Assembly (NCBI GenBank): GCA_963785725.1
Contig: CAWAWS010000016.1
Coordinates: 224,001-288,000 of the forward strand
From: an uncultured delta proteobacterium
GTDB lineage: Bacteria; Myxococcota_A; Polyangia; Palsa-1104
Direction of reading: 5' to 3'
Length of the DNA: 64,000 nucleotides
This document shows, one piece after another, positions 43,891 to 54,961 of this stretch. A model generated the notes under the pieces. That model did no database searches, was not told the origin of the DNA, and was given only the letters and a program-made list of their open reading frames with translations. Made by a program: the position numbers and the translations under genes. Within the stretch, counting starts at the first letter, position 1. Each line of letters starts with the position of its first letter.

Positions 43891-43971
43891 CGCCTTCAGT
43901 GTTTTCGGCGCAGCCTTCGCTGTCAATGCCACTGTCTATAATAGACGCGTTGCCGTGCTACTTTGTTCGCC

Positions 43972-44409
43972 ATGACCGTGCTGTTGCTGCTGGCGACGCT
44001 CGTCGGTGCGCTCTTCGTCCTCCGGCAGCTGGTGACGACGCGAGCGGCCCAGCGGGCGACGCCGGCCTTGCGCCTGGCCGGCGGGCCGCCCGACGACGCC
44101 CGTCACGGCGACAGTGACGGCGATGAAGCCGGCGCCGGGCGACCGCTGCTCGACGCCATCGCGCTGGTGCTGCGCGCGCAGGGCGCCGAGGTCGCCGCCG
44201 TCGAGGCCGACGACTGGGGCTTCGCGGCCGCGGCGATCGTCGACGGGCAGCCGTTGACGCTGAAGCTCGGCGCCCACGGATCGAACGGCGTCGGGCCCGA
44301 GTGGCTGCTCGTGCTCGACGGCGCGCACGACTCGGCGGCGCTGCGGCGCGCGATCGAAGCGGCGGCCGCCGCCGTCACCGGGGTCAAGCTGCTCGGCTGG
44401 GACGACTGA
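43972..44409 (+). CDS. Small hypothetical membrane-anchored protein
   Basis: N-terminal hydrophobic helix; DDWGF motif; TGn-TACTTT -10 element 7 nt upstream. Confidence 0.6.
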   Translation: MTVLLLLATLVGALFVLRQLVTTRAAQRATPALRLAGGPPDDARHGDSDGDEAGAGRPLLDAIALVLRAQGAEVAAVEADDWGFAAAAIVDGQPLTLKLGAHGSNGVGPEWLLVLDGAHDSAALRRAIEAAAAAVTGVKLLGWDD

Positions 44410-44421
44410 CCGACGCCCAGC

Positions 44422-46020
44422 TCAGTCGCATTCCTGCTCCCACATGCGCTCGCTCTTCCATTCGCGCTGCGTGTGGCCGGGAGCGGGCGTGAGGCTGTAG
44501 TCTTCGTAGAGCGCGAAGTGATCGAGCGGCTGACCGTCGACGCCGCCGGCGGTGCGCCAGCTCGCGCACAAATAGCGGCCCAAGGCCTTGAACAGCCGCG
44601 TGCGCCGCGGGCTCGGCTGCTCTTTGGTCAGCGCGAGCGCGTATTTGGTCCAGCGATGGTTGCTGTCGATGCCGTTGAACGAGACGGGGCCGCCGTCGAT
44701 TCCGTGCAAGCGCGTCGACCTTGCGACCGTCGATGAGCACGCCCTCGGCGCGCACGGTGCGATCGGACGGCAACGGCCGCGGCGCGAACATGTCCCAGCG
44801 CTGCCACAGCTCGATGACGCGCATGACGCTCGAGAGCGGCCGCGGCAAGTGCGCGCCCGCCTCGCCCGGCAGCGAGTAGAGCATGGCCATGACCAGCGTC
44901 GCCGCCAAGAGCGCGCGGCCGACGGAGCGGTAGCGCGGCCGCCACGAGAACGACCGCAGCGGCTCCGGCCCGACGAGCTGCGCACGCCACGGCACCAGCA
45001 GCCGCTCGCGCCAGCTCGCCGGCAAATCCGACGCGCGCGCGCCACCAGCGCCTCGGCCCAGCGCGGCTCGAAGAGCAGCGGATACGAGGCCAGCATCATG
45101 AGCGAGAAGTTGCCGACGTTCATGGTGAGGGCGATGCCGACGTGCAGCCCGAGGCCGGCGAGGAGCGCCAGCTTGCGCAGCCGCGACTGCTGAATCGGCG
45201 CGAAGACCAGCAAGACGAAGGCGGCCTCGAACGCCAGCGTGCCGTAGGTCGCCGGCACGGTCAGCCAGCCGGCATTGAAGAGCGCGGCGCCGAGGCGACG
45301 CGTGAACAGGTGGTCGAGGCCGAACGCGTAGTGCAGCGCGGTGCCGTTTTCCCAGGTGCGATCGCCGATCTTGCATAAGAACGTGCACACGTAGATCCAG
45401 CACAGCTGCAGCTGCAAGAGGCGCACGACGAAGGGAGCGCCGTGCATCGGCAGCGGGCGGCCGGCGGCGCGCGCCTCTGCGGCGTCAACCGAGTAGGTCG
45501 CGCCGATGGGCAAGAACAGGCACCAGAAGAGGAAGACGCGCGCCACGCTGTCGGAGCCGTCGAAGATCATCGGGTTCCGCTCGTGCAGGCCGGAGACGAG
45601 GACGAAGGTGGCGATGGCGGCCCACCGCGTGCGCCAACCGGCGACGAAGGCGAGCGTCGCGACGACCGCGAGCAGCCACAGCGCCCACGTCATCGCCAAC
45701 GGACCGGCGAGGTCGAAGACGGAGAAGCGGTCGGCGCGCGCCACGCCGCCGAGCAGCACCGAGCGCGGCAGGACGCCTTCGTCGGACAAGAGCGCGCGCA
45801 GCACCGGCGCCACGGTCGCGAGCGACCACAAGACGACGGTGCCGAGCGTGATGCGCATGAGGCCGAGCGGCCGGAGATCGAGCGGCGCCGTCCAGAAGCG
45901 ACGCGTGAACGGATGGTCGCCCTCGGGCGGCTGTGCGACCGTCGCCAGCGCATCGCGCGCGGGCACGGCAACGTCGGACACATTCACGAGCTGGAGCGCG
46001 GAGCTCGACATGGAGGTCAT
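44422..46020 (-). CDS. HTTM-domain (vitamin-K-dependent carboxylase-like/SdpB-like) membrane protein with C-terminal QxWxMFAP domain; two compensating frameshifts near 45030 and 44710
   Basis: DLRPLGLMRITLG, SDEGVLPR, RNPMIFDGSD, YSVD, QLCWIY..K..W.NGTA, LHVGIALTMNVGNFS. The alternative frame carries LWQRWDMFAPRP. Confidence 0.85.
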   Translation of the reverse strand: MTSMSSSALQLVNVSDVAVPARDALATVAQPPEGDHPFTRRFWTAPLDLRPLGLMRITLGTVVLWSLATVAPVLRALLSDEGVLPRSVLLGGVARADRFSVFDLAGPLAMTWALWLLAVVATLAFVAGWRTRWAAIATFVLVSGLHERNPMIFDGSDSVARVFLFWCLFLPIGATYSVDAAEARAAGRPLPMHGAPFVVRLLQLQLCWIYVCTFLCKIGDRTWENGTALHYAFGLDHLFTRRLGAALFNAGWLTVPATYGTLAFEAAFVLLVFAPIQQSRLRKLALLAGLGLHVGIALTMNVGNFSLMMLASYPLLFEPRWAEALVARARRICRRAGASGCWCRGVRSSSGRSRCGRSRGGRATAPSAARSWRRRWSWPCSTRCRARRARTCRGRSRASCASSSCGSAGTCSRRGRCRPIAPCAPRACSSTVARSTRLHGIDGGPVSFNGIDSNHRWTKYALALTKEQPSPRRTRLFKALGRYLCASWRTAGGVDGQPLDHFALYEDYSLTPAPGHTQREWKSERMWEQECD

Positions 46021-46457
46021 TCCTTTGTTGGATCGCGACCGCGGGTGGGAGGCAGGCCGGCGCGCGCCACGCCCGTCAGGACCGCGACGAGGCAAGCGGC
46101 CAATCCCGCGCCCAGCCCGAGCGAGCGGTAGACATCGCCCGAAGTCGCGCCGAAGAAGAGGCCGGCGTAGACGATGAGGACGCCGGTCGGCAAGAGCATG
46201 CGGATCGGCGTGAACAGTCGCGTGCGCCGCGGCTCGGGGCGCACGACGGCGAGCACGGTGAAGACGAGGTAGAGCGCGGCCGCGACCAGCGTCGCTTCGA
46301 CGAGCGCGTGCAGCGGCGAGACCGCGCGCACGCCGTCGGCGCCCCACTGCAGCGTCACGGCATGCGGCCAATGCGCGCGCGTCAGCCAGGCGCCGCCGTA
46401 AAACAGCGCCAGCGCGCTCGCGGGGACGATGATCGCCGGCGACGACGCGGTCCTCAC
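46017..46457 (-). CDS. Small 4-TM membrane protein, DUF1648/SdpI-like (candidate immunity)
   Basis: GTG 46457 overlaps the upstream stop and its stop overlaps the next ATG; WPHAVTLQWGADG resembles the DUF1648 LP..VP.HW...G motif. Confidence 0.6.
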   Translation of the reverse strand: MRTASSPAIIVPASALALFYGGAWLTRAHWPHAVTLQWGADGVRAVSPLHALVEATLVAAALYLVFTVLAVVRPEPRRTRLFTPIRMLLPTGVLIVYAGLFFGATSGDVYRSLGLGAGLAACLVAVLTGVARAGLPPTRGRDPTKE

Positions 46458-47977
46458 GGCCGCACCGTAGCCACGATCGCGTCGACGAGCGCGGGCGCGA
46501 TCGGCAGCTGCGGATCGCGGTAGCTCGCCTGCGGCGACGACGTCGACGGATCGACCTTGAGCGCGTGGCTGACGCCGGCGAGGATGGTCAATTCGACGCC
46601 GGGACGCGCCGCCGCCAGCAGCCGCGCGTCGCCGACCGTGACCTGCAGATCGTGGTCGCCTTGGATGACGCGCGTCGGCAAGGTCAGCCGCTTCTGCAGC
46701 GCGAGGGGATCGGCGAACAGCCAGCCTTGACGAAAGCGAAACATCGCGCGCGTAAAGAGCGCCGCCAGCGCCGGATCTTGCGGCGCGACGAAGCGGCCGG
46801 CGCGCTCGCCGGCGACGAGGCGGTCGTACTCCTGCAAGGTCGTCGCCGAGGCCAGCGCGGCCAGCTGCTCGCGCAGGAGCGTCGCTACCGGACGTCCGCT
46901 CGTCGACAGCAGCACGAGGCCGTCGAGCGGCAGGTGCTGCGCCAGCATGAGCGCGATGAGGCCGCCTTCGGAGTGGCCGCAGACGTAGAGCTTGGAGACG
47001 GCCGGATCTTTGCGCGCGAAGGCGACGACGGCGGCCGCGTCCTGCACGAAGTCGTCGAAAGAGACGGCCTCGAGGTCGCGCGGCCAATCGCTGGCGCCGA
47101 CGCCGCGCTTGTCGTAGCGCAGGCTGGCGATGCCGCGCGCTGCCAACGCCTCGGCCAGCAGACGATAGCTGGCGGACGTGACGCCGAGCGTGCTGTTGCC
47201 GTCGCGATCGGTCGGGCCCGAGCCGGCGACGAGGACGACGGTGGGAAACGGGCCCGCCCCTTCCGGTCGACGGATGGCGCCGCGCACGGTGACATCGGCG
47301 CGCTCGACCGCGAACGGCGCCTCGCTTGCCGGCGACGGCGACGCCGGCTGCGCCGACTGCCGCACGCTCACCTGCCGGTCGACCGCGTGCGCGACGAGGC
47401 CTTGGCTGGGCACGCCGCCGGCCACGACGACGCCCGCCGCCGACAAATCGACCGCGACGGTCACCGCGCCGATGACGACCGCGACGTGGCGACCGCCGTC
47501 GGGCCGCGCCGTCACCTGGATCGTGCCCGGCACGACGACCGCCCGCGACGGCACCAGCACCTGCACCGGCGTCGGCGTCGCGGCAGCGGCGAAGTCGTCG
47601 GCGGCGACGAGATAGGCGCCCCAGTGAAAATTCTCGAGCGCGAGCCCGCCGGCCGGGATGTCGCGCTCGAGCCGCTCGCCGCCCTGCTCCAGCGTCACCC
47701 GGCGATGATCACGATCGATGCGAATGGTGACGTCGCCGCTGCCTTCGAAGCGCAGCTGGCTGGTCACGACATGGCCATCGTCGCTGAACTCTTCGCGCCC
47801 GATCTCGCGGTCGCCGATCGTCGTCGCCAGCGCGCCCTGGCGCAGCGGCCGCGCCGGCGCGACGGGCGCGGGCCGAACGACCACCGGGCCCGCGACCGGC
47901 GTCTGCGCGCGCGGCCCGGCGCAGCCGAACCCGACCAGCGCAAACAAGAGCGTCCATTGCGGCGGCTTCTTCATCAT
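46454..47977 (-). CDS. Lipoprotein alpha/beta-hydrolase (serine peptidase/esterase)
   Basis: Lipobox VGFGC; AGSGPTDRDGN, RYDKRGVG, GHSEG nucleophile, QGDHD, VSH. Confidence 0.88.
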   Translation of the reverse strand: MMKKPPQWTLLFALVGFGCAGPRAQTPVAGPVVVRPAPVAPARPLRQGALATTIGDREIGREEFSDDGHVVTSQLRFEGSGDVTIRIDRDHRRVTLEQGGERLERDIPAGGLALENFHWGAYLVAADDFAAAATPTPVQVLVPSRAVVVPGTIQVTARPDGGRHVAVVIGAVTVAVDLSAAGVVVAGGVPSQGLVAHAVDRQVSVRQSAQPASPSPASEAPFAVERADVTVRGAIRRPEGAGPFPTVVLVAGSGPTDRDGNSTLGVTSASYRLLAEALAARGIASLRYDKRGVGASDWPRDLEAVSFDDFVQDAAAVVAFARKDPAVSKLYVCGHSEGGLIALMLAQHLPLDGLVLLSTSGRPVATLLREQLAALASATTLQEYDRLVAGERAGRFVAPQDPALAALFTRAMFRFRQGWLFADPLALQKRLTLPTRVIQGDHDLQVTVGDARLLAAARPGVELTILAGVSHALKVDPSTSSPQASYRDPQLPIAPALVDAIVATVRP

Positions 47978-48019
47978 GGCCTCGTCATACCGCGACTGCG
48001 GCGGGCGCAACAACGGCGC

Positions 48020-48982
48020 TCACGCCGCGTGCTCGGCCGCGACCGGCGCGACCACCAGCGCCAGCTGCGGCGCCGGCCCGCGCCGCGACAGCCGCATGCG
48101 CAGCGCGTCGATCCAGGCGAACGGCTCGTCGACCGGCTGCAGAAAGAGGATGAGCGCCGCCGACATCGAGCCGAAGAAGCTGACGAGACCGTGGATGAAG
48201 ATGATGGCGGCGTGGAAGGCCAGCCCCAGCGGCAACAGCCGACGCCGCCAACGCCGCTCCATGAACAGCGCGCCGAACAGCACGACCTCGAGCAGCAGCG
48301 TGCCCCACGTCAAGGCCACGACGCCCGCCGACTTCGACAGGATCGGCATCGCCCAGCGCTCCAGCGTCGGCGACAGACCGATGGTGGAGTTGGTGAACCA
48401 GTAGTAGCAAGCGGTGCCGTCGCGCCACTCTTTGACGCCGAGCTTGGCGGTGCTGGCGTGGAAGTAGATGCCGGCCACCTGCAGGCGGACCGTCCACAGC
48501 ATGAGGCGGCTCACGAACGCCGCCAGCTGCGCGCCGACGCCGGGGCCGATCGCCGGCGGCGCATCCCAGTGCCAGCGGCGGCCGTCGGTGAGCGTGACGG
48601 GCACGAGCAGCAGCGCCAACACCGCCGCGATCTGATCGCCGCCGTCGATGACGATGCACGACGTGGCGAAGCTGGCGGCCACGTACCAATGCAGGATGCC
48701 GGTGAAGCGCGGCCGCCAGCCCGACACGACGAGCGCCAGCACGGCAATCGCGATCGCGCGCGCCAGCCCGAGGTGCGCCGGCGCGAGGAGGCCGAACAGG
48801 CTCAGCCGCACCGGCAAAAAGTCGCCCGCCGCGTCGAGCATCGTCTGATTCGCGGGCCGAAACAGCATATCCGACGAGTTGACGATCAGCGTCAGCAGCG
48901 TGCCCGACGCGACGACGGAGCGCGCCAGCCCGACGACGTTGGTCCAAACCGGGCGTTCAGTCGTGTGCTCGATCGATTTCAT
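48020..48982 (-). CDS. sdpB: SdpB-family peptide maturation membrane protein
   Basis: PVWTNVVGLARS, SGWRPRFTGILHWY, DGGDQ, TDGRRWHW, QVAGIYFHAS.AK..EW.DGTA.YY, FHAAI..HGL.SF. Alternative start at 48994. Confidence 0.9.
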   Translation of the reverse strand: MKSIEHTTERPVWTNVVGLARSVVASGTLLTLIVNSSDMLFRPANQTMLDAAGDFLPVRLSLFGLLAPAHLGLARAIAIAVLALVVSGWRPRFTGILHWYVAASFATSCIVIDGGDQIAAVLALLLVPVTLTDGRRWHWDAPPAIGPGVGAQLAAFVSRLMLWTVRLQVAGIYFHASTAKLGVKEWRDGTACYYWFTNSTIGLSPTLERWAMPILSKSAGVVALTWGTLLLEVVLFGALFMERRWRRRLLPLGLAFHAAIIFIHGLVSFFGSMSAALILFLQPVDEPFAWIDALRMRLSRRGPAPQLALVVAPVAAEHAA

Positions 48983-48990
48983 CGTGTCCC

Positions 48991-49530
48991 TCATTTCCAG
49001 ATGACGTTGAGCTTGACGACGTCCGACGGCATGTAGACCCGATCGCGCGCCGCGCTCCAGGCCCACGGCACCGGCTGCGCCGAGGCAATGACCACTTCGC
49101 CCGCCAGCGAGCGCACGAGCATCGGGTTGACGACGCGCGCCACCGGCAGCTTGGGATTGGCCAGGCAGGCGTCGAGGCTGCCCTCGCATTTGAAGTGCTT
49201 GGACGCGGGCACGAGGCTCATCAGCTTCTCGATCTCGGCGCCCTCGACGCGGTCGTTGCGCTTGAGGCCGAGCCAGACCCGCGACTGCGCTTGGCTGTGC
49301 CGCACCCAATGGCCGTTCTCGCGCAGGTAGACCGACTTGCTCGACTCGCGCGGGTCGCGCGTGAAGAAGGCCCAGCCCTCGGGCAAGATCGAGACGAGGC
49401 GCGTTCGCGTCGCGACGCCGGCGGACAGCGGCATCTCCGTGATCGAGCCGCAGGCGACGAAGACGATCAGCGCCACCCAAACGGCGACGATCGCGCCTTT
49501 CATGACGAGCAAGAGACTACGAGCGCTCAT
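48991..49530 (-). CDS. sdpA: SdpA-family peptide maturation protein
   Basis: N-terminal TM, LPEGWAFFTRDPRE, GLKR..R..G.E, PVPWAW; GGAGG RBS. Confidence 0.9.
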   Translation of the reverse strand: MSARSLLLVMKGAIVAVWVALIVFVACGSITEMPLSAGVATRTRLVSILPEGWAFFTRDPRESSKSVYLRENGHWVRHSQAQSRVWLGLKRNDRVEGAEIEKLMSLVPASKHFKCEGSLDACLANPKLPVARVVNPMLVRSLAGEVVIASAQPVPWAWSAARDRVYMPSDVVKLNVIWK

Positions 49531-49620
49531 GGTGCTTCTCCTCCGTGAAAACCGTGGCCAAACTGCCGCCTCCATCCGCGCCGGCCGGCGGCGACCGCGC
49601 GCGGATGGAGGCGCTTCGAG

Positions 49621-50436
49621 CTACTTCGCCAAGTGCACGGCGATGGCGTCGACGAACTGGTCGTGCGACACGCCCGCCGCCCCGTTCACCGCCCGACTGG
49701 AGGTGGCGATGTGCAGGTAAAAGATCGGCGGATACACCGGGATCACGACGGCAACGAAGATCGGCTGGACGATGATCGGATCGACGACGATCGGCGCCGG
49801 CGGTGCCGGCGGAGTGCCGCCGGTATCGCCGCTGTCGGCGCCACCGCTGTCGCCGCTGTCGGCGCCGCCGCTGTCGCCGCTGTCGGCGCCACCTTCGTCT
49901 CCAGCGCCGTCGTCACCGCCGCCGCCGCCGTCCTCGACGCACGTCGCGCAATAGTCGTCGGCGTGCACGCCCGCGCCCTTGTGCGCCTGCGCCGCCCGCT
50001 TCTGCAGCTTGCGCGCCGAGGCCTGCGCCAGCTTGCCCGCCGCGTCGAGCGACCGCTCGATGCGCAGGCGATCCCCGCTCTCCATGTCGGCCTTGAAGTC
50101 CGCGAAGAACGCCGGCTGCTGCGCGCGCATCTGACGCACCAGCCCCATGAGCTGCGTCTTGGCCTTGGCCAGCTGCTGCGCGTCCGGAACCGCGTGCTCG
50201 AGCTTCTGCGCGCTACCGATCTCGGGCAGCGCGTCGGCCACGCGGCCGCTACCGAACGCGATGCCGAGAAAGAGCTCTTCGCCCGTGTAATCCGGCCGCG
50301 CCGTCGCCGGCTGTGCCGCCGTCGCCGCCGCCTGCTGCGCGACGACCGTGCTCTCGGAGCCGCCCGGCGCCACGCCGCAACCGAGCGCGAACGACAGCGC
50401 CAGCGCGCCGAAGGTCCATTTATAGCTTCTCTTCAT
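49621..50436 (-). CDS. sdpC: SdpC-family precursor 2 (lipoprotein, 271 aa)
   Basis: Lipobox ALGC; YTGEELFLGIAFGSGRVADALPEI; PAFFADFKADMESGD; C-terminal DQFVDAIAVHL. Confidence 0.85.
   Translation of the reverse strand: MKRSYKWTFGALALSFALGCGVAPGGSESTVVAQQAAATAAQPATARPDYTGEELFLGIAFGSGRVADALPEIGSAQKLEHAVPDAQQLAKAKTQLMGLVRQMRAQQPAFFADFKADMESGDRLRIERSLDAAGKLAQASARKLQKRAAQAHKGAGVHADDYCATCVEDGGGGGDDGAGDEGGADSGDSGGADSGDSGGADSGDTGGTPPAPPAPIVVDPIIVQPIFVAVVIPVYPPIFYLHIATSSRAVNGAAGVSHDQFVDAIAVHLAK
49822..49893 (-). repeat. 3 x 24-bp in-frame tandem repeat encoding GGADSGD(S/T)
   Basis: Units at 49822-49845, 49846-49869 and 49870-49893, differing at only a few positions. Confidence 0.9.
49924..49971 (-). 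repeat. 48-bp perfect repeat, copy in precursor 2 (second copy 50792-50839)
   Basis: gccgccgtcctcgacgcacgtcgcgcaatagtcgtcggcgtgcacgcc occurs identically at both positions. Confidence 0.95.
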
Positions 50437-50440
50437 TGAC

Positions 50441-51400
50441 TCAGTTCCCCTGATTCTGGTTAGCGACGAGGTGCACCGCGATCGAGTGGACGAGCTGCTC
50501 CTGGATGAGCGACGACTCGGGGACGCCGTTCTTGTAGGCCGGCAGCGCCACCACCGCCGCCAGCGCCGCCGCGACCACCGACGCGACCGAGATGTTGTGC
50601 ACGAGCGCGATGTGGACCGCGGCCGCGACCGCCACCCACAGCACGACCGCCGCCGACTTGTAGATGAGCGACAGGCCAGCCACCGGGCCGGTGCCATCGT
50701 CGCCGCCGCCGCCGTCGTCGGCCGTGCCGTCGTCGCCGCCGTCGTCGGCGCTGCCGTCATCGGCGCCGCCACCGTCGTCGCTGCCGCCGCTGCCGCCGTC
50801 CTCGACGCACGTCGCGCAATAGTCGTCGGCGTGCACGCCGCCTTTGCCGTGCATCGCGACGAGGTGCTCCTGCGTCTTCGACTTCAGCTCGGCGAAGGTC
50901 TGCGGCTCCTTGCCGTCCAAGCCCAGCTCCGCCGGCGACATCTTGGCCAGCCGCGCCTTGGCCGCCTTCGTCCCCGGCAGCCCGTCGACCGCCGCCTGCG
51001 TCACCAGGCCGGCGTCCCACAGGCCCTTTTGGATGACCAGGTGATCGCCGCTCTCCATCTGCGCCTTGAACGCGTCGAAGAACTCCGGCTTGGAGCTGCG
51101 CACGAGCGCCACGATCTTGTCCTCGGCGCGCCGCACGGTCGCCAGCGTCTTCGGCGAGGTCTGGAAGTTCTCCAGCTTCAGGTTGTCGCGAATCTCGGGG
51201 ATCGCGTCAGCCACCGGGCCGTGCAAGAGCATGATGCCGCGATAGAGCTGCTCGCCGGTATAACCCGACGTCGCCGCCGTCGTCGCTGCCGCCGCCGTGG
51301 GCGCGACCGCTGCTGACCCGGAGCCGGGCTGTCCCACGCATCCGACCATGACGACCGCCAAGATGGGCGCCGTCAGTGCTGCTACTTTCCAATGTTCCAT
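50441..51400 (-). CDS. sdpC: SdpC-family precursor 1 (lipoprotein, 319 aa)
   Basis: GGAGG RBS; lipobox MVGC; YTGEQLYRGIMLLHGPVADAIPEI; PEFFDAFKAQMESGD; long Ala/Val core; C-terminal SSLIQEQLVHSIAVHL. Confidence 0.88.
   Translation of the reverse strand: MEHWKVAALTAPILAVVMVGCVGQPGSGSAAVAPTAAAATTAATSGYTGEQLYRGIMLLHGPVADAIPEIRDNLKLENFQTSPKTLATVRRAEDKIVALVRSSKPEFFDAFKAQMESGDHLVIQKGLWDAGLVTQAAVDGLPGTKAAKARLAKMSPAELGLDGKEPQTFAELKSKTQEHLVAMHGKGGVHADDYCATCVEDGGSGGSDDGGGADDGSADDGGDDGTADDGGGGDDGTGPVAGLSLIYKSAAVVLWVAVAAAVHIALVHNISVASVVAAALAAVVALPAYKNGVPESSLIQEQLVHSIAVHLVANQNQGN
50792..50839 (-). repeat. 48-bp perfect repeat, copy in precursor 1
   Basis: Identical to 49924-49971; encodes GVHADDYCATCVEDGG. 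Confidence 0.95.
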
Positions 51401-51462
51401 TCGTCCGTCCTCCGCTTTGCGTTGCGCGCGCGGCTGCATTCGCCGCGAGCGTGCGACCGCAC

Positions 51463-51478
51463 TTCAACCGCCGTGCCA
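51463..51478 (-). promoter_or_regulatory. Putative sigma54 promoter of the sdp-like operon
   Basis: Minus strand TGGCAC-GGCGG-TTGAA (perfect -24; -12 is GA instead of GC), about 60 nt upstream of ATG 51400. Confidence 0.55.
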
Positions 51479-51714
51479 CGACGCGTTTACCGTCGCTGAC
51501 AGCGGCCGAGCAGCGCATACGCGCGGGTCCACGTGCGCAAGATCACACGCGCTGCCGCCGCGGCTCGAGCAGGTCCGATTCGTCGACGGGAATGGCCGCA
51601 GAGACGCGGCGCGGATGGGGCGACGGCGAACGAAGACCCACCGTCCCATGAGACTGTCGCGGGACTGTCCCGCGTCAGCGGTCGCGCGCGCCCCGGACGA
51701 TCACGCTGAAGCGA

Positions 51715-52587
51715 CTAGAGCGCGCGCAGCAGCCGCTCGAGCTCGACGCGCATCGCGGCCGGCGACTGCGCGTGGAAGCGGCGGCCATGGCCGGGCAAGA
51801 TCGTGTGGAACGAATACTGAAGTAACCGCTTCAGTGATTGCAGCTGCTCCGTCCACGAGTACCAGCAGACGTCGCGGCCGGCGTCGAGACGGCCGAGCTC
51901 GTCGTCCCACCAGACGTGGTCGCCGGTGAAGAGCACGCCGTCGTGCAGGAGCGCCAGCGAGCCGCGCGTGTGGCCGGGCACGGGAATGAGCAGCAGATCG
52001 TCGGCGAGCGCGATGGGATCGGCGCCGTCGACGCGCTGCTCGATGGCGAGCCGGCCGGCATCGGCGGCGTGCATGACGCGCGTACAGCCGAAGCGGCGCG
52101 CCAGCTGCTCGTGGTCGGCGACGTCGTCGCGATGGGTGAGCACCAGCTGCGCGACGCCGCCGAGCGCCGCCAGTCGCGCCATGAGCGGACGCGCGGCGCG
52201 CGGCGAATCGACGAGCACATTGCCGCGCGCGCGGACGATGAGGTACGAGGCGGCGCCGTAGGAGTCGGCGCTGTGGTAGCCGCAGTAGTAGATGTCGCCG
52301 TCGCCGATGCGCTCGGGAAAGCGGGCGGCGGCGGCGCGCGCGGCGCCGGCTTTGGCCAGCGGCTGCGCGCCGATGCTGGCCGTCGGGCAGGCGACGAGCG
52401 CCATGAGCGCGCGCTCGGTGGCGGCGGCGTCGCCGTCGTCGGGCTGCGCGGCGACGATGGATTGGTCACCCGCGCGCGCGAAGACCTGCGGCGCCAGCTG
52501 GCGGCAGGCGTCGCAGTCGATGCAGCTGTCGTCGACGAAGAAGCGGCCGGGCGCATTGCCAAAGAGCCGATGAGCGACGCGCGCCAT
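51715..52587 (-). CDS. Ferredoxin-fused metallo-beta-lactamase-fold protein
   Basis: CIDCDAC...CP N-terminus; LTHRDDVADH, PGHTRGS, FTGDH, LPGHG. Confidence 0.88.
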   Translation of the reverse strand: MARVAHRLFGNAPGRFFVDDSCIDCDACRQLAPQVFARAGDQSIVAAQPDDGDAAATERALMALVACPTASIGAQPLAKAGAARAAAARFPERIGDGDIYYCGYHSADSYGAASYLIVRARGNVLVDSPRAARPLMARLAALGGVAQLVLTHRDDVADHEQLARRFGCTRVMHAADAGRLAIEQRVDGADPIALADDLLLIPVPGHTRGSLALLHDGVLFTGDHVWWDDELGRLDAGRDVCWYSWTEQLQSLKRLLQYSFHTILPGHGRRFHAQSPAAMRVELERLLRAL

Positions 52588-52635
52588 CTCCCGAATGTAG
52601 CGCCGGGCTACGCGTTGCGCACGTCGAACGAGCCG

Positions 52636-53412
52636 CTACTTCTCGACCACCGTCCCATGGGCGCGCTTGACCAAGGTGTCGACGATGTAGCTCGCCACCT
52701 GCGACGGCTTCGTCCCGGGACCGAACCCCGCGTCGTAGCCGAGCTCGCGCGCCAGCTTGTGGTCGATGCGCGGCCCGCCGAGCAGGAAGATGAGATCGCG
52801 CATGCCGTTCTTGCGCGCCAGCTCGATCAGCTGCTGCGAGTTCTCGATGTGCAGATCGCGCTGCGTCATGATCTGCGACACCAGCACCGCATCCGCGTTC
52901 AGCTCTTTGGCGCGCGCCAACAGGGCCGCGTTGTCGACCTGCGCGCCCAAGTTGTAGGCGTCCATCCACGGATAGGCCTCGAGGCCCTTGTCGCCGGCAT
53001 AGCCCTTCATGTTCAAGATGGCGTCGATGCCGACGGTGTGCGCGTCCGAGCCGGTGCAGGCGCCGACGACGACGACCTTGCGATGCAGCTCCTCGTGGAT
53101 GAGATGGTTGATCTCTTTGAAGCCCCACGCAGGCACCGTCACCTCCGGCACCTCGATCTCGCTGTAGTCGAGCTGCACGTCGGCGTTGGCGTAGACGACG
53201 AAGAAGCTGAAGCTGGCGCCGGCCTGCTCCATCGTCGCCACCAGCACGTTCTTCAGGCCCAACTCGACGGCGAAGCGGCGCGCGGCCTCTTTGGCGCGGC
53301 CCGACGGCGGCACCGGCAAGGTGAAGCTCAGCTGGATGCGGCCGTCGTCTTTGCGGTCGCCGTAGGCGCGGATCATCTCCGGCGGACGCTTGTGCGGCGC
53401 GGTGTCAGACAT
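52636..53412 (-). CDS. kamE: Lysine 5,6-aminomutase beta subunit (cobalamin-binding)
   Basis: YGDRKDDGRIQLSFTLP dimerisation domain; SDAHTVGIDAILNMKG (DxHxxG and PLP Lys). Confidence 0.93.
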   Translation of the reverse strand: MSDTAPHKRPPEMIRAYGDRKDDGRIQLSFTLPVPPSGRAKEAARRFAVELGLKNVLVATMEQAGASFSFFVVYANADVQLDYSEIEVPEVTVPAWGFKEINHLIHEELHRKVVVVGACTGSDAHTVGIDAILNMKGYAGDKGLEAYPWMDAYNLGAQVDNAALLARAKELNADAVLVSQIMTQRDLHIENSQQLIELARKNGMRDLIFLLGGPRIDHKLARELGYDAGFGPGTKPSQVASYIVDTLVKRAHGTVVEK

Positions 53413-54961
53413 GGCGGCCCTCCTCCAGCACGTCGAGGATCGGGTTGACGTAATCGGCCGCCTTCTCGACGACGCCGGCCAAGCCGCGCCCGCCCTTCTC
53501 CGGCCGCTTGACGTCGGCGAAGGCGCCGCGACCGATGGCCGCGAACATGCCCTCGGCCTGCACCTCGCCGAGCAAGGTCTTGGCCTCGTCGAGCACGAGC
53601 TTGGCGCGCGCGACGATGCGACCCGCCGGATTCCAGATGATCTCTTCCGACAGGTGGCGCGCGGCGTTGAAGACGTACTCGGCGCCTTTGATCGCGCAGA
53701 AGCGATCTTGCAGGAGCGGCGTGTGAATCGACTCCGTCATCATGCCGAGCAGCTCGATCGACTGCTCGGTGGCGACGCCGACGAGATCGTACAGACCGTC
53801 GACGCGATGGCTCCAGAAGATGTCGCCCGATTTGTGCTTCGTCGACGGCATCCACTTGATCGGATGCTTCGGGAAGATCTGCCGCACCAGCTGCGCCTGC
53901 GCCATCTCCATCAAGAACGAGTCTTCGATCGACTTGTCGATCTCGAAGGCGTGGCCGAGGCCCATTTGCTCTTCGGGCAGGCCGGCGCGCAGGGCGAAGG
54001 CCTCGTTGATGAACTGCGAGGCGAAGACCGTGTGCGCCTTGTCGATGGCGTCGGCGGTCGTCAGGTAATTGTCCTCGCCGGTGTTGATGATGATGCCGGC
54101 GCGGGCGATCATGCGACGCGAGAAATATTGATCGCAGAGCGTGCGCCGCGGGTTGATGTCGCGAAACAGGATGCCGTACATGGCGTCGTTGAGCAGCATG
54201 TCGAGCCGCTCGACCGCGCCCAGATAGGCGATCTCCGGCATGCACAAGCCGGACGAGTAGTTCACCTGCATCAAGTAGCGCCCGAGCTTCTCCTGCTCGT
54301 CGTCGAGGGCGCTGCGCACGATCTTGAAGTTCTCCTGCGTCGCCCAGGTGCCGCCGAAGCCTTCGGTGGTCGCGCCGTAGGGCACGTAGTCGATGAGCGA
54401 CTGCGCGGTCGAGCGGATGACGGCGATGACGTCGGCGCCCGCCTGCGCCGCGGCGCGCGCTTGATCGGCGTCGTCGTAGATGTTGCCGGTGGCGACGATG
54501 ACGTACTTCCACGGAATGGGCCCGGTGCCGAGCCGCTCGCGATCGCTCTTGCGCTTGTCGCGCGCGCGGTCGATGCGCTCGATCGCCGCTTTGGTGTGCG
54601 GCGCGAGCGCGGCGTGCACGTCGGCGAGGCTCGGTCCGCCGGCGCCGGAGTCGACTTCGCTGCCGTAGGCGAGCGCTTCGGCGGCCTCTTGCGGATCGGC
54701 GGCGCCACGAGCGAGCGCTCGGCCGAGCCACCAGGCGATGCCGTGACCGAGGCCGCCCGAGGCCAAGTAACGGTCGACGCAGCTGTTGACGAGCGGCACG
54801 CCTTCGGCGTCGGCACCGTCGATGCCGTAGGCGCGCAGGACCGTGCGTTCGATGGAGACCGTGGTGTGAGCGTCGATGAAGCGCTGCACCCCGCCGGCGA
54901 TATCTCCGGCGAGGCGGCGACAGTCGTCGACAATCGCGTTATCGATGGGGAGCGGATGCAC
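53405..54961 (-). CDS. kamD: Lysine 5,6-aminomutase alpha subunit
   Basis: YVIVATGNIY, IRSTAQSLIDYVPYG, NYSSGLCMPEIA, NDAMYGILFRDIN, INTGEDNY. Confidence 0.95.
   Translation of the reverse strand: MHPLPIDNAIVDDCRRLAGDIAGGVQRFIDAHTTVSIERTVLRAYGIDGADAEGVPLVNSCVDRYLASGGLGHGIAWWLGRALARGAADPQEAAEALAYGSEVDSGAGGPSLADVHAALAPHTKAAIERIDRARDKRKSDRERLGTGPIPWKYVIVATGNIYDDADQARAAAQAGADVIAVIRSTAQSLIDYVPYGATTEGFGGTWATQENFKIVRSALDDEQEKLGRYLMQVNYSSGLCMPEIAYLGAVERLDMLLNDAMYGILFRDINPRRTLCDQYFSRRMIARAGIIINTGEDNYLTTADAIDKAHTVFASQFINEAFALRAGLPEEQMGLGHAFEIDKSIEDSFLMEMAQAQLVRQIFPKHPIKWMPSTKHKSGDIFWSHRVDGLYDLVGVATEQSIELLGMMTESIHTPLLQDRFCAIKGAEYVFNAARHLSEEIIWNPAGRIVARAKLVLDEAKTLLGEVQAEGMFAAIGRGAFADVKRPEKGGRGLAGVVEKAADYVNPILDVLEEGRHV

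What the first reader, a model, noticed from the sequence alone, without database searches (positions are those of the whole stretch)
44422..51478. Expanded SDP-like peptide-toxin (RiPP-type) operon: two lipoprotein precursors, two HTTM enzymes, a hydrolase and a candidate immunity gene
Seen: seven co-oriented genes in the order sdpC1-sdpC2-sdpA-sdpB-hydrolase-small 4TM-HTTM. Several junctions are ATGA/GTGA overlaps or a 4-nt gap, and a sigma54-like promoter lies upstream. Established: in Bacillus subtilis, SdpC is a secreted precursor matured with SdpA/SdpB into a hydrophobic, disulfide-containing membrane toxin, and SdpI gives immunity. Differences here: a Gram-negative myxobacterial host, lipobox rather than SPI signals, two precursors with unrelated cores, an acidic insert before the core, an extra HTTM enzyme and a dedicated serine hydrolase. 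Inference: an undescribed surface- or vesicle-delivered antibacterial (predation or kin-killing) system making two different or two-component peptides.
Basis: partly seen in the sequence, partly recalled or inferred. Interest (0 to 1): 0.88.

Follow-up and report, generated by a model that had tools for sequence, protein, structure and literature searches.

The report
Expanded myxobacterial SDP peptide-toxin island
A soil myxobacterium carries a seven-gene insert of the known SDP peptide-toxin family that likely makes two membrane-attacking peptides, and it adds a second vitamin-K-carboxylase-shaped enzyme (out of frame in this assembly), a hydrolase and a likely immunity protein whose roles are untested.

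Summary
The seven genes are real and co-oriented. They form a 7.3-kb island missing from the same site in 4 of 4 congeners. SdpA and SdpB pass curated cut-offs. Both precursors match the SdpC pro-domain below cut-off. Much of the claimed novelty is ordinary. An SdpC in Myxococcus xanthus is in print, and sdpA occurs in 24 of 151 genomes of the Myxococcus family. 26 of 31 other myxobacterial precursors have a lipobox, and one other locus has two precursors. Uncommon features: a CxxC plus Gly/Asp spacer (4 of 151 SdpC-like proteins) and a second, single-chain HTTM enzyme (0 of 35 other sdp loci). An intact orthologue of that enzyme folds like human gamma-carboxylase residues 32-490. A ~96% identical soil relative keeps the gene order, and C1-like, SdpB and second-HTTM orthologues share one 22,544-base contig length in another organism. 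Best reading: an SDP-family cluster that gained linaridin-like parts (hydrolase, extra HTTM) and an SdpI-like gene. Chemistry and killing are untested. The scan noted related HTTM/SdpA pairs on other DNA. New variant of a known kind.

The parts
51464..51478 (-). sigma54-like motif, -12 element non-canonical, 63 nt before the C1 start; function not shown
   Evidence: pattern not enriched at this spacing genome-wide
50441..51400 (-). SdpC-like precursor C1 (P0001, 319 aa): lipobox-like Cys21, pro-domain, CxxC (195-198), Gly/Asp spacer, Ala/Val-rich His-containing hydrophobic core (about 240-292), conserved C-terminal helix
   Evidence: TIGR04032 56.6 bits, below cut-off 99.2, model positions 2-105; alignment; hydropathy
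49621..50436 (-). SdpC-like precursor C2 (P0002, 271 aa): lipobox-like Cys20, pro-domain, CxxC (163-166), Gly/Asp/Ser spacer, Pro/Ile/Val-rich core (about 208-250), conserved C-terminal helix
   Evidence: TIGR04032 77.8 bits, below cut-off
49924..49971 (.). 48-base block identical to 50792-50839, covering the CxxC motif of both precursors
49567..49613 (-). 21-pair GC-rich hairpin between the precursor genes and sdpA; likely stabilises or partly ends the precursor transcript (inference)
48991..49530 (-). SdpA (P0003, 179 aa), one N-terminal TM helix
   Evidence: PF17418 94.4 bits > 25; TIGR04034 90.8 > 53.1
48020..48994 (-). SdpB (P0004, 324 aa; a start 12 nt further in is also on record), HTTM/GGCX-type membrane domain; Lys184, His261, Phe273 invariant
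   Evidence: TIGR04033 241 > 178.4; model pLDDT 93, top Foldseek hits GGCX
46454..47977 (-). alpha/beta serine hydrolase with lipobox-like N-terminus and an unassigned N-terminal domain (P0005)
   Evidence: PF12146 76 bits; GHSEG motif; N-terminal domain gave only Atlas leads under 0.9
46017..46457 (-). small membrane protein (P0006, 146 aa), DUF1648/SdpI-like candidate immunity protein
   Evidence: Atlas score 0.90, 203 shared features, 10 of 10 best family hits agree; no Pfam or NCBIfam hit
44422..46011 (-). second HTTM enzyme (P0007): single-chain HTTM plus DUF5819-like domain; out of frame between about 45040 and 44712 in this assembly
   Evidence: PF05090 29 bits; intact orthologue P0157 aligns to GGCX 32-490, Z 27.4, 412 residues, rmsd 6.4
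44410..51714 (.). whole island, lying between the stop codons of two convergent flanking genes that are neighbours in congeners
   Evidence: empty-site joint 44407-51761 in runs X1 and X3

Best explanation
This is an SDP-family ribosomal peptide cluster on a 7.3-kb island, and it likely exports two lipid-anchored precursors whose hydrophobic cores would be matured by the SdpA-SdpB membrane enzyme, likely cut free by the neighbouring lipoprotein hydrolase, and likely used to damage competitors' membranes, with the DUF1648-like protein predicted to give immunity. Shown: family membership of SdpA and SdpB, the precursor layout (signal, conserved pro-domain, variable core, conserved C-terminal helix), the GGCX-type fold of both HTTM proteins, and the island. 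Inferred: lipidation and periplasmic anchoring; that SdpA supplies the soluble domain that the second HTTM protein carries in one chain; and that the chemistry is linaridin-like rather than Glu carboxylation. The best guess is mass-silent epimerisation of the Val/Ala/Ile cores, because the GGCX Lys218, His287 and Phe299 positions are kept, His160 is not, and the C1 core has no Thr or Cys. The second HTTM enzyme is inferred to be an added tailoring enzyme of this small clade, intact in relatives and probably in the living strain.
For: SdpA and SdpB above cut-offs; SdpC pro-domain hits. Empty site in 4 of 4 congeners. Run X1 has contigs about 93-99% alike that cover parts of all seven genes and bridge C1-C2, C2-sdpA, sdpA-sdpB and sdpB-hydrolase-TM-HTTM2. 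The nearest non-Logan relatives of C1 (P0009, 47%), SdpB (P0191, 67%) and HTTM2 (P0158, 67%) each come from a JGI contig of 22,544 bases. GGCX-type folds and residue mapping (roles from bioRxiv 2025.02.09.637231). Linaridin clusters pair an HTTM protein, an alpha/beta hydrolase and LinL, and yield Dhb and D-amino acids. L146 also has two precursors beside a hydrolase of this family. B. subtilis SdpC homologues have group-specific hydrophobic C-termini and need SdpA/B (PMC6818787).
Against: No separate HTTM2 in 0 of 35 other sdp loci, and no sdp gene in 0 of 80 HTTM2-family loci. The hydrolase family has two more members elsewhere in this genome and members elsewhere in congeners. HTTM2 is out of frame here. 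SdpA versus the HTTM2 C-terminus was not significant (HH E 0.13). P0006 has no HMM hit, and its Atlas recognition score (2229) is below the 2300 mark. The 22,544-base contig itself was not retrieved, so that linkage rests on equal contig length and source. No activity or expression data.
Confidence: 0.5

Rival explanations
1. An ordinary sdpC-sdpC-sdpA-sdpB locus with passengers: the hydrolase, TM gene and second HTTM gene were picked up at the same spot, share a transcript at most, and do not act on the peptides. HTTM2 may be decaying.
For: 0 of 35 sdp loci have HTTM2, 1 of 35 has the hydrolase, 0 of 80 HTTM2-family loci have sdp genes. HTTM2 is a separate subfamily, not a copy of local SdpB (100/100). 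Two frameshifts. The site lies between convergent genes.
Against: All seven genes are missing together in 4 congeners. Order is kept in X1. C1, SdpB and HTTM2 orthologues at 47-67% identity share a contig length. A GTGA overlap and a 5-nt gap couple the last three genes. 42 of 3176 long ORFs in this assembly show a similar out-of-frame block, which points to assembly error.
Confidence: 0.27
2. HTTM2 is a menaquinone-dependent carboxylase, like GGCX or MloH, that carboxylates Asp/Glu in the Gly/Asp spacer behind the CxxC, giving the precursors a metal- or membrane-binding segment.
For: Intact orthologue matches GGCX 32-490 over its whole length; the Lys218 equivalent is kept. CxxC plus spacer occurs in 4 of 151 SdpC-like proteins, and 3 of those 4 lie here or on the 22,544-base contig with HTTM2. 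MloH carboxylates Asp and has the fused layout (bioRxiv 2026.08.19.745780).
Against: His160 of the GGCX Glu pocket is Ala/Ser in HTTM2. The HTTM2 family stands without such precursors in 80 of 80 loci. DNA like the spacer matches many places in congener genomes, so it is a common low-complexity stretch. The co-occurrence rests on one small clade.
Confidence: 0.1
3. The products are not antibacterial but are signalling or surface-structural peptides released from, or displayed on, lipoproteins.
For: Cores in the family are very varied, including tandem repeats and Asn-rich stretches. The cores here lack the SDP disulfide. Toxicity is shown in the papers I read only for Bacillus members.
Against: Island location, patchy spread (0 of 41 other genomes of the order), variable hydrophobic cores and an SdpI-like neighbour fit a toxin-immunity locus.
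Confidence: 0.13

Closest known systems
Bacillus subtilis sdpABC-sdpIR and yitPOM (TIGR04032/04033/04034)
   Same: SdpA and SdpB above cut-off; precursor with signal, conserved pro-domain and variable hydrophobic C-terminal core; candidate SdpI-like immunity gene.
   Different: Order C-C-A-B; lipobox; two precursors; CxxC and Gly/Asp spacer before Cys-free cores; no SdpR-like repressor among the seven genes; extra hydrolase and second HTTM enzyme.
Myxobacterial sdpC-sdpA-sdpB loci (M. xanthus Q1CXZ2 noted in PMC3924187; loci L021-L023, L034-L056, L139-L147)
   Same: Gene order C-A-B, lipobox (26 of 31 precursors), tails mostly with fewer than two Cys (31 of 33), conserved C-terminal helix.
   Different: Only 1 of 35 has two precursors and a hydrolase (L146, divergent); 0 of 35 have the second HTTM gene; none seen with CxxC plus spacer.
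Linaridin clusters (LinG HTTM + LinE alpha/beta hydrolase + LinL; LinH fusion)
   Same: Same kinds of parts: HTTM membrane protein, small partner, alpha/beta hydrolase.
   Different: Long lipoprotein precursors with a folded pro-domain rather than short leader-core peptides; no Thr in the C1 core; no methyltransferase, decarboxylase or ABC transporter in the island; direct homology to LinE and LinL not tested.
[quoted passage not shown]
   Same: SdpB matches the membrane domain; the intact HTTM2 orthologue matches residues 32-490; Lys218, His287 and Phe299 positions kept.
   Different: His160 replaced (DGGD / DG[AS]D in place of NNHS); GGCX beyond residue 490 has no counterpart.

Membership tests
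SDP family (sdpABC) | SdpA above curated cut-off | tested here: met
   TIGR04034 90.8 > 53.1; PF17418 94.4 > 25
SDP family (sdpABC) | SdpB above curated cut-off | tested here: met
   TIGR04033 241.1 > 178.4
SDP family (sdpABC) | SdpC precursor above curated cut-off | tested here: inconclusive
   TIGR04032 56.6 and 77.8 bits, E 3e-15 and 9e-22, under 99.2; only the pro-domain aligns because of the spacer; PF26137 precomputed for both
SDP family (sdpABC) | Export signal plus hydrophobic C-terminal core | tested here: met
   lipobox-like signals by pattern, no SignalP available; hydropathy
SDP family (sdpABC) | Cys pair inside the core, as recalled for B. subtilis SDP | tested here: not met
   0 Cys in either core; also absent in most relatives, so it is not family-wide
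SDP family (sdpABC) | SdpI-type immunity protein | tested here: inconclusive
   Atlas DUF1648/SdpI lead 0.90; no HMM hit
SDP family (sdpABC) | Processed peptide that lyses cells | not testable with these tools
   needs expression, MS and assays
Linaridin | HTTM protein (LinG type) and alpha/beta hydrolase in the cluster | tested here: inconclusive
   both folds present, but no LinG or LinE model or sequence was available to compare
Linaridin | LinL homologue | tested here: inconclusive
   HTTM2 C-terminus hits DUF5819 weakly (E 0.015-0.03); that DUF5819 holds LinL is recalled, not tested; SdpA vs HTTM2 not significant
Linaridin | Short Thr-rich core giving dehydrobutyrine | tested here: not met
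   C1 core 0 Thr, C2 core 2 Thr at its edges; precursors 271-319 aa
GGCX/MloH carboxylase | GGCX fold with catalytic Lys218 | tested here: met
   (HTTM2 folded as intact orthologue P0157)
GGCX/MloH carboxylase | His160 of the Glu pocket | tested here: not met
   Gly in 117 of 117 SdpB rows; Ala/Ser/Cys in 30 of 30 HTTM2 rows; placed by sequence alignment, one column from an invariant Asp

The most novel reading that the evidence does not exclude
A small clade of myxobacteria has built a two-enzyme SDP pathway: the split GGCX-like SdpAB epimerises two unrelated hydrophobic cores, and a dedicated single-chain GGCX-like enzyme modifies the CxxC-acidic module that both precursors share. This would be the first peptide cluster using two vitamin-K-carboxylase-fold enzymes on a lipoprotein precursor, and would tie SDP and linaridin chemistry together.
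Probability: 0.13. Interest if true: 0.82.

Novelty: new variant of a known kind. Interest (0 to 1): 0.5.

Why it matters
The papers I read say SdpA and SdpB are required to make SDP but give no chemistry. This work shows SdpB has the GGCX membrane fold with the catalytic Lys but not His160. The island places it beside a linaridin-type part list and a single-chain enzyme of the same fold. That makes a plain test possible, in B. subtilis SDP as well: look for D-residues. If the second enzyme acts on the CxxC-spacer module, it would be new peptide chemistry. If the extra genes are passengers, the locus is one more myxobacterial SDP cluster.

Tried and rejected
Myxobacterial host, lipobox and two precursors as novelty: rejected. 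HTTM2 as a duplicate of local SdpB: rejected. General co-conservation of the downstream trio: rejected. Retrieving the 22,544-base contig: the first metagenome scan found nothing; in the second, no locus had sdp genes. The genome-contig scan with SdpB gave only L023. SdpB single-sequence search of PDB: 0 hits. SdpA vs HTTM2 profile: not significant. No RNA holder listed. sigma70 promoter scan: 0 sites; 3 terminator-like sites against 3.2 expected. P0006: no match in 41 other genomes of the order with this query. Hydrolase N-terminal domain: Atlas leads under 0.9. My first lipobox tally used a wrong window and gave 0; it was corrected. L057 was dropped from the locus count because no sdp gene was confirmed in it. 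PMC3697648 and PMC2941286 are not held. Earlier-finding look-ups by sequence, place and two word sets returned nothing.
Full report
Observation. SdpA (TIGR04034 90.8 bits, cut-off 53.1) and SdpB (TIGR04033 241, cut-off 178.4) pass curated thresholds. C1 and C2 match TIGR04032 over the pro-domain only (56.6 and 77.8 bits, cut-off 99.2). The hydrolase matches PF12146, the last gene PF05090, and the small TM gene nothing. Junctions are tight except C2-sdpA (90 nt, with a 21-pair hairpin) and sdpB-hydrolase (42 nt). The sigma54-like site is non-canonical at -12, and its pattern is not enriched at that spacing (19 against 7-25). The genome has 20 MYXO-CTERM matches, which fits a myxobacterial host; I could not name its taxon.

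A missed defect. In the last HTTM gene the GC3 signal leaves the frame between about 45050 and 44715. The other frame there matches intact homologues P0157 (80%) and P0158 (67%). So two compensating frameshifts scramble about 110 residues. Assembly error is the likelier cause (about 3 in 4, my estimate). 42 of 3176 long ORFs in this assembly show a similar block, although I did not validate those individually. One contig crossing each site has a single gap (the indel table was cut, so the gap positions were not shown).

It is an island. In 4 of 4 congeners the two flanking genes are neighbours, 45-400 bases apart. The empty-site joint also appears in runs X1 and X3. SdpB above cut-off was found in 12 of 401 genomes of the class, counting this one, and in 0 of 41 other genomes of the order. 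SdpA was found in 3 of 401 sampled from the phylum. Run X1 holds eight contigs about 93-99% alike that cover parts of all seven genes. They bridge C1-C2, C2-sdpA, sdpA-sdpB and, in one 2.5-kb piece, sdpB-hydrolase-TM-HTTM2. This is one close relative, not distant conservation. More distant: P0009 (47% to C1, with CxxC and spacer), P0191 (67% to SdpB) and P0158 (67% to HTTM2) are each recorded on a JGI contig of 22,544 bases. I infer they share one contig but could not fetch it.

What is ordinary. PMC3924187 (passages) already assigns an M. xanthus protein to the SdpC family. NCBI names SdpB proteins in Pyxidicoccus, Corallococcus, Archangium, Gemmatimonadaceae and Aquimarina. SdpA matched 24 of 151 genomes in the family of Myxococcus sp. 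1LA, 20 above cut-off. I examined 35 other sdp loci with flanks of roughly 6-9 kb, several cut by contig ends. 26 of 31 scorable precursors have a lipobox-like Cys (two pieces left out), and 31 of 33 have fewer than two Cys in the last 75 residues. One locus (L146) has two precursors with different cores. In 151 SdpC-like proteins (the best 150 of 476 hits plus C1), 60 of 146 that start with Met have a loose lipobox and 71 of 151 have no Cys after residue 130. Group-specific hydrophobic C-termini are known in B. subtilis homologues (PMC6818787, passages), and sdp islands are known in Brevibacterium (PMC5719810, passages).

What is uncommon. CxxC followed by a Gly/Asp spacer occurs in 4 of 151 (C1, C2, P0008, P0009; P0073 partly). 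C1 and C2 share an identical 48-base block over this motif, although C1's own orthologue P0008 differs there. That suggests recent copying between the two genes. A separate HTTM2 gene occurs in 0 of 35 sdp loci, the hydrolase in 1 of 35, a P0006 homologue in 0 of 35 (a weak single-sequence test). Sdp genes occur in 0 of 80 HTTM2-family loci. One hydrolase neighbour in 35 loci is weak evidence, as this genome has three family members.

The enzymes. The SdpB model (pLDDT 93) has GGCX structures as its top 15 Foldseek rows (best E 9.5e-4, TM 0.51). The HTTM2 family profile hits human GGCX at E 9e-10. The intact orthologue P0157 (pLDDT 87) aligns to GGCX 32-490 with Z 27.4, 412 residues, rmsd 6.4; the next unrelated row is Z 7.7. 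So HTTM2 is a single-chain membrane-plus-soluble-domain enzyme whose C-terminus hits DUF5819 weakly, while SdpB has the membrane part only. That SdpA supplies the missing part is an inference. The profile comparison lined up the TM helix and W-x-x-F motif but was not significant, and no complex could be predicted. The two HTTM proteins belong to separate groups (100/100 on a tree of 20 SdpB and 15 HTTM2 rows chosen). Both keep the Lys218, His287 and Phe299 positions (117 of 117 SdpB rows; 29-30 of 30 HTTM2 rows) and replace His160. In GGCX, Lys218 is catalytic and His160 lines the Glu pocket (bioRxiv 2025.02.09.637231, passages). A preprint models HTTM plus DUF5819 as a split GGCX and notes the fused layout in MloH, which carboxylates Asp (bioRxiv 2026.08.19.745780, passages).

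Mechanism. An earlier scan note pointed me to linaridins. Their clusters hold an HTTM protein, an alpha/beta hydrolase and LinL (PMC9927463 and bioRxiv 2020.07.09.196543, passages). Their products carry D-amino acids, with grmL proposed as an epimerase (PMC10373908 and PMC10849128, passages). Xue et al. 2023 I saw only as a reference title; that the hydrolase domain removes the leader is recalled. The island has the same kinds of parts. The C1 core is Ala/Val/Leu-rich with no Thr or Cys, and His160 is absent. So I favour mass-silent epimerisation by SdpAB, release of the core by the lipoprotein hydrolase, and immunity by the DUF1648/SdpI-like protein (Atlas 0.90; SdpI role from PMC13343845, passages). 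All three steps are inferred. It is not a linaridin by membership. Confidence: 0.95 that it is an SDP-family locus, 0.5 for the whole functional unit, 0.27 passengers, 0.13 non-toxic product, 0.1 carboxylation of the spacer.

Literature. Nine searches listed no paper describing a myxobacterial sdp cluster experimentally, SdpAB chemistry, or this arrangement. The library lacks most subscription papers, and the two key SDP papers were not held. I read no supplements; the linaridin survey's supplementary models would bear on the LinE/LinL comparison.

Verdict. Real, a member of the SDP family, with a rare clade-restricted expansion.

Noticed in passing
L048, L050, L051, L052, L053, L056 (genomes in the family of Myxococcus sp. 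1LA): SdpC-like precursors in sdpC-A-B loci whose region between pro-domain and C-terminal helix is a tandem array of short Asn-Pro-containing units (up to about 20 copies) instead of a hydrophobic core. They look like multi-core precursors and may say more about SdpAB chemistry than this locus.
   Followed up: no
L044; proteins P0046, P0142, P0030: SdpC-like precursors with polar Asn/Thr/Asp- or Tyr/Asp-rich repeat cores rather than hydrophobic ones.
   Followed up: no
L146 (G660): Independent C-C-A-B locus with two unrelated cores and a divergent hydrolase of the P0005 family.
   Followed up: partly
L045, L141, L145: sdpC lies on the opposite strand to sdpAB in these loci.
   Followed up: no
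L022:12133-13698: A protein that reads like an FHA/sigma54-type activator (label by eye, no HMM run) sits just upstream of sdpC in G058; it may bear on the sigma54-like site here.
   Followed up: no
window 50792-50839 and 49924-49971: Identical 48-base block shared by two otherwise 36%-identical precursor genes; suggests recent gene conversion of the CxxC module.
   Followed up: partly
G000 whole genome: Six HTTM matches by Pfam, one a strong GGCX-like hit on C15 (260 bits), plus SdpB; 42 of 3176 long ORFs have an internal out-of-frame GC3 block, a sign of indel errors.
   Followed up: partly
L086, L126, L131, L132: Loci with two or three HTTM-family genes close together and no sdp precursor.
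   Followed up: no
window 43963-44409: Conserved 148-aa gene flanking the island (54-61% in congeners) with no Pfam or NCBIfam hit.
   Followed up: no
window 51715-54961: Ferredoxin plus metallo-beta-lactamase-fold gene, a lysine 5,6-aminomutase beta subunit gene and its likely alpha partner flank the island on the promoter side.
   Followed up: no
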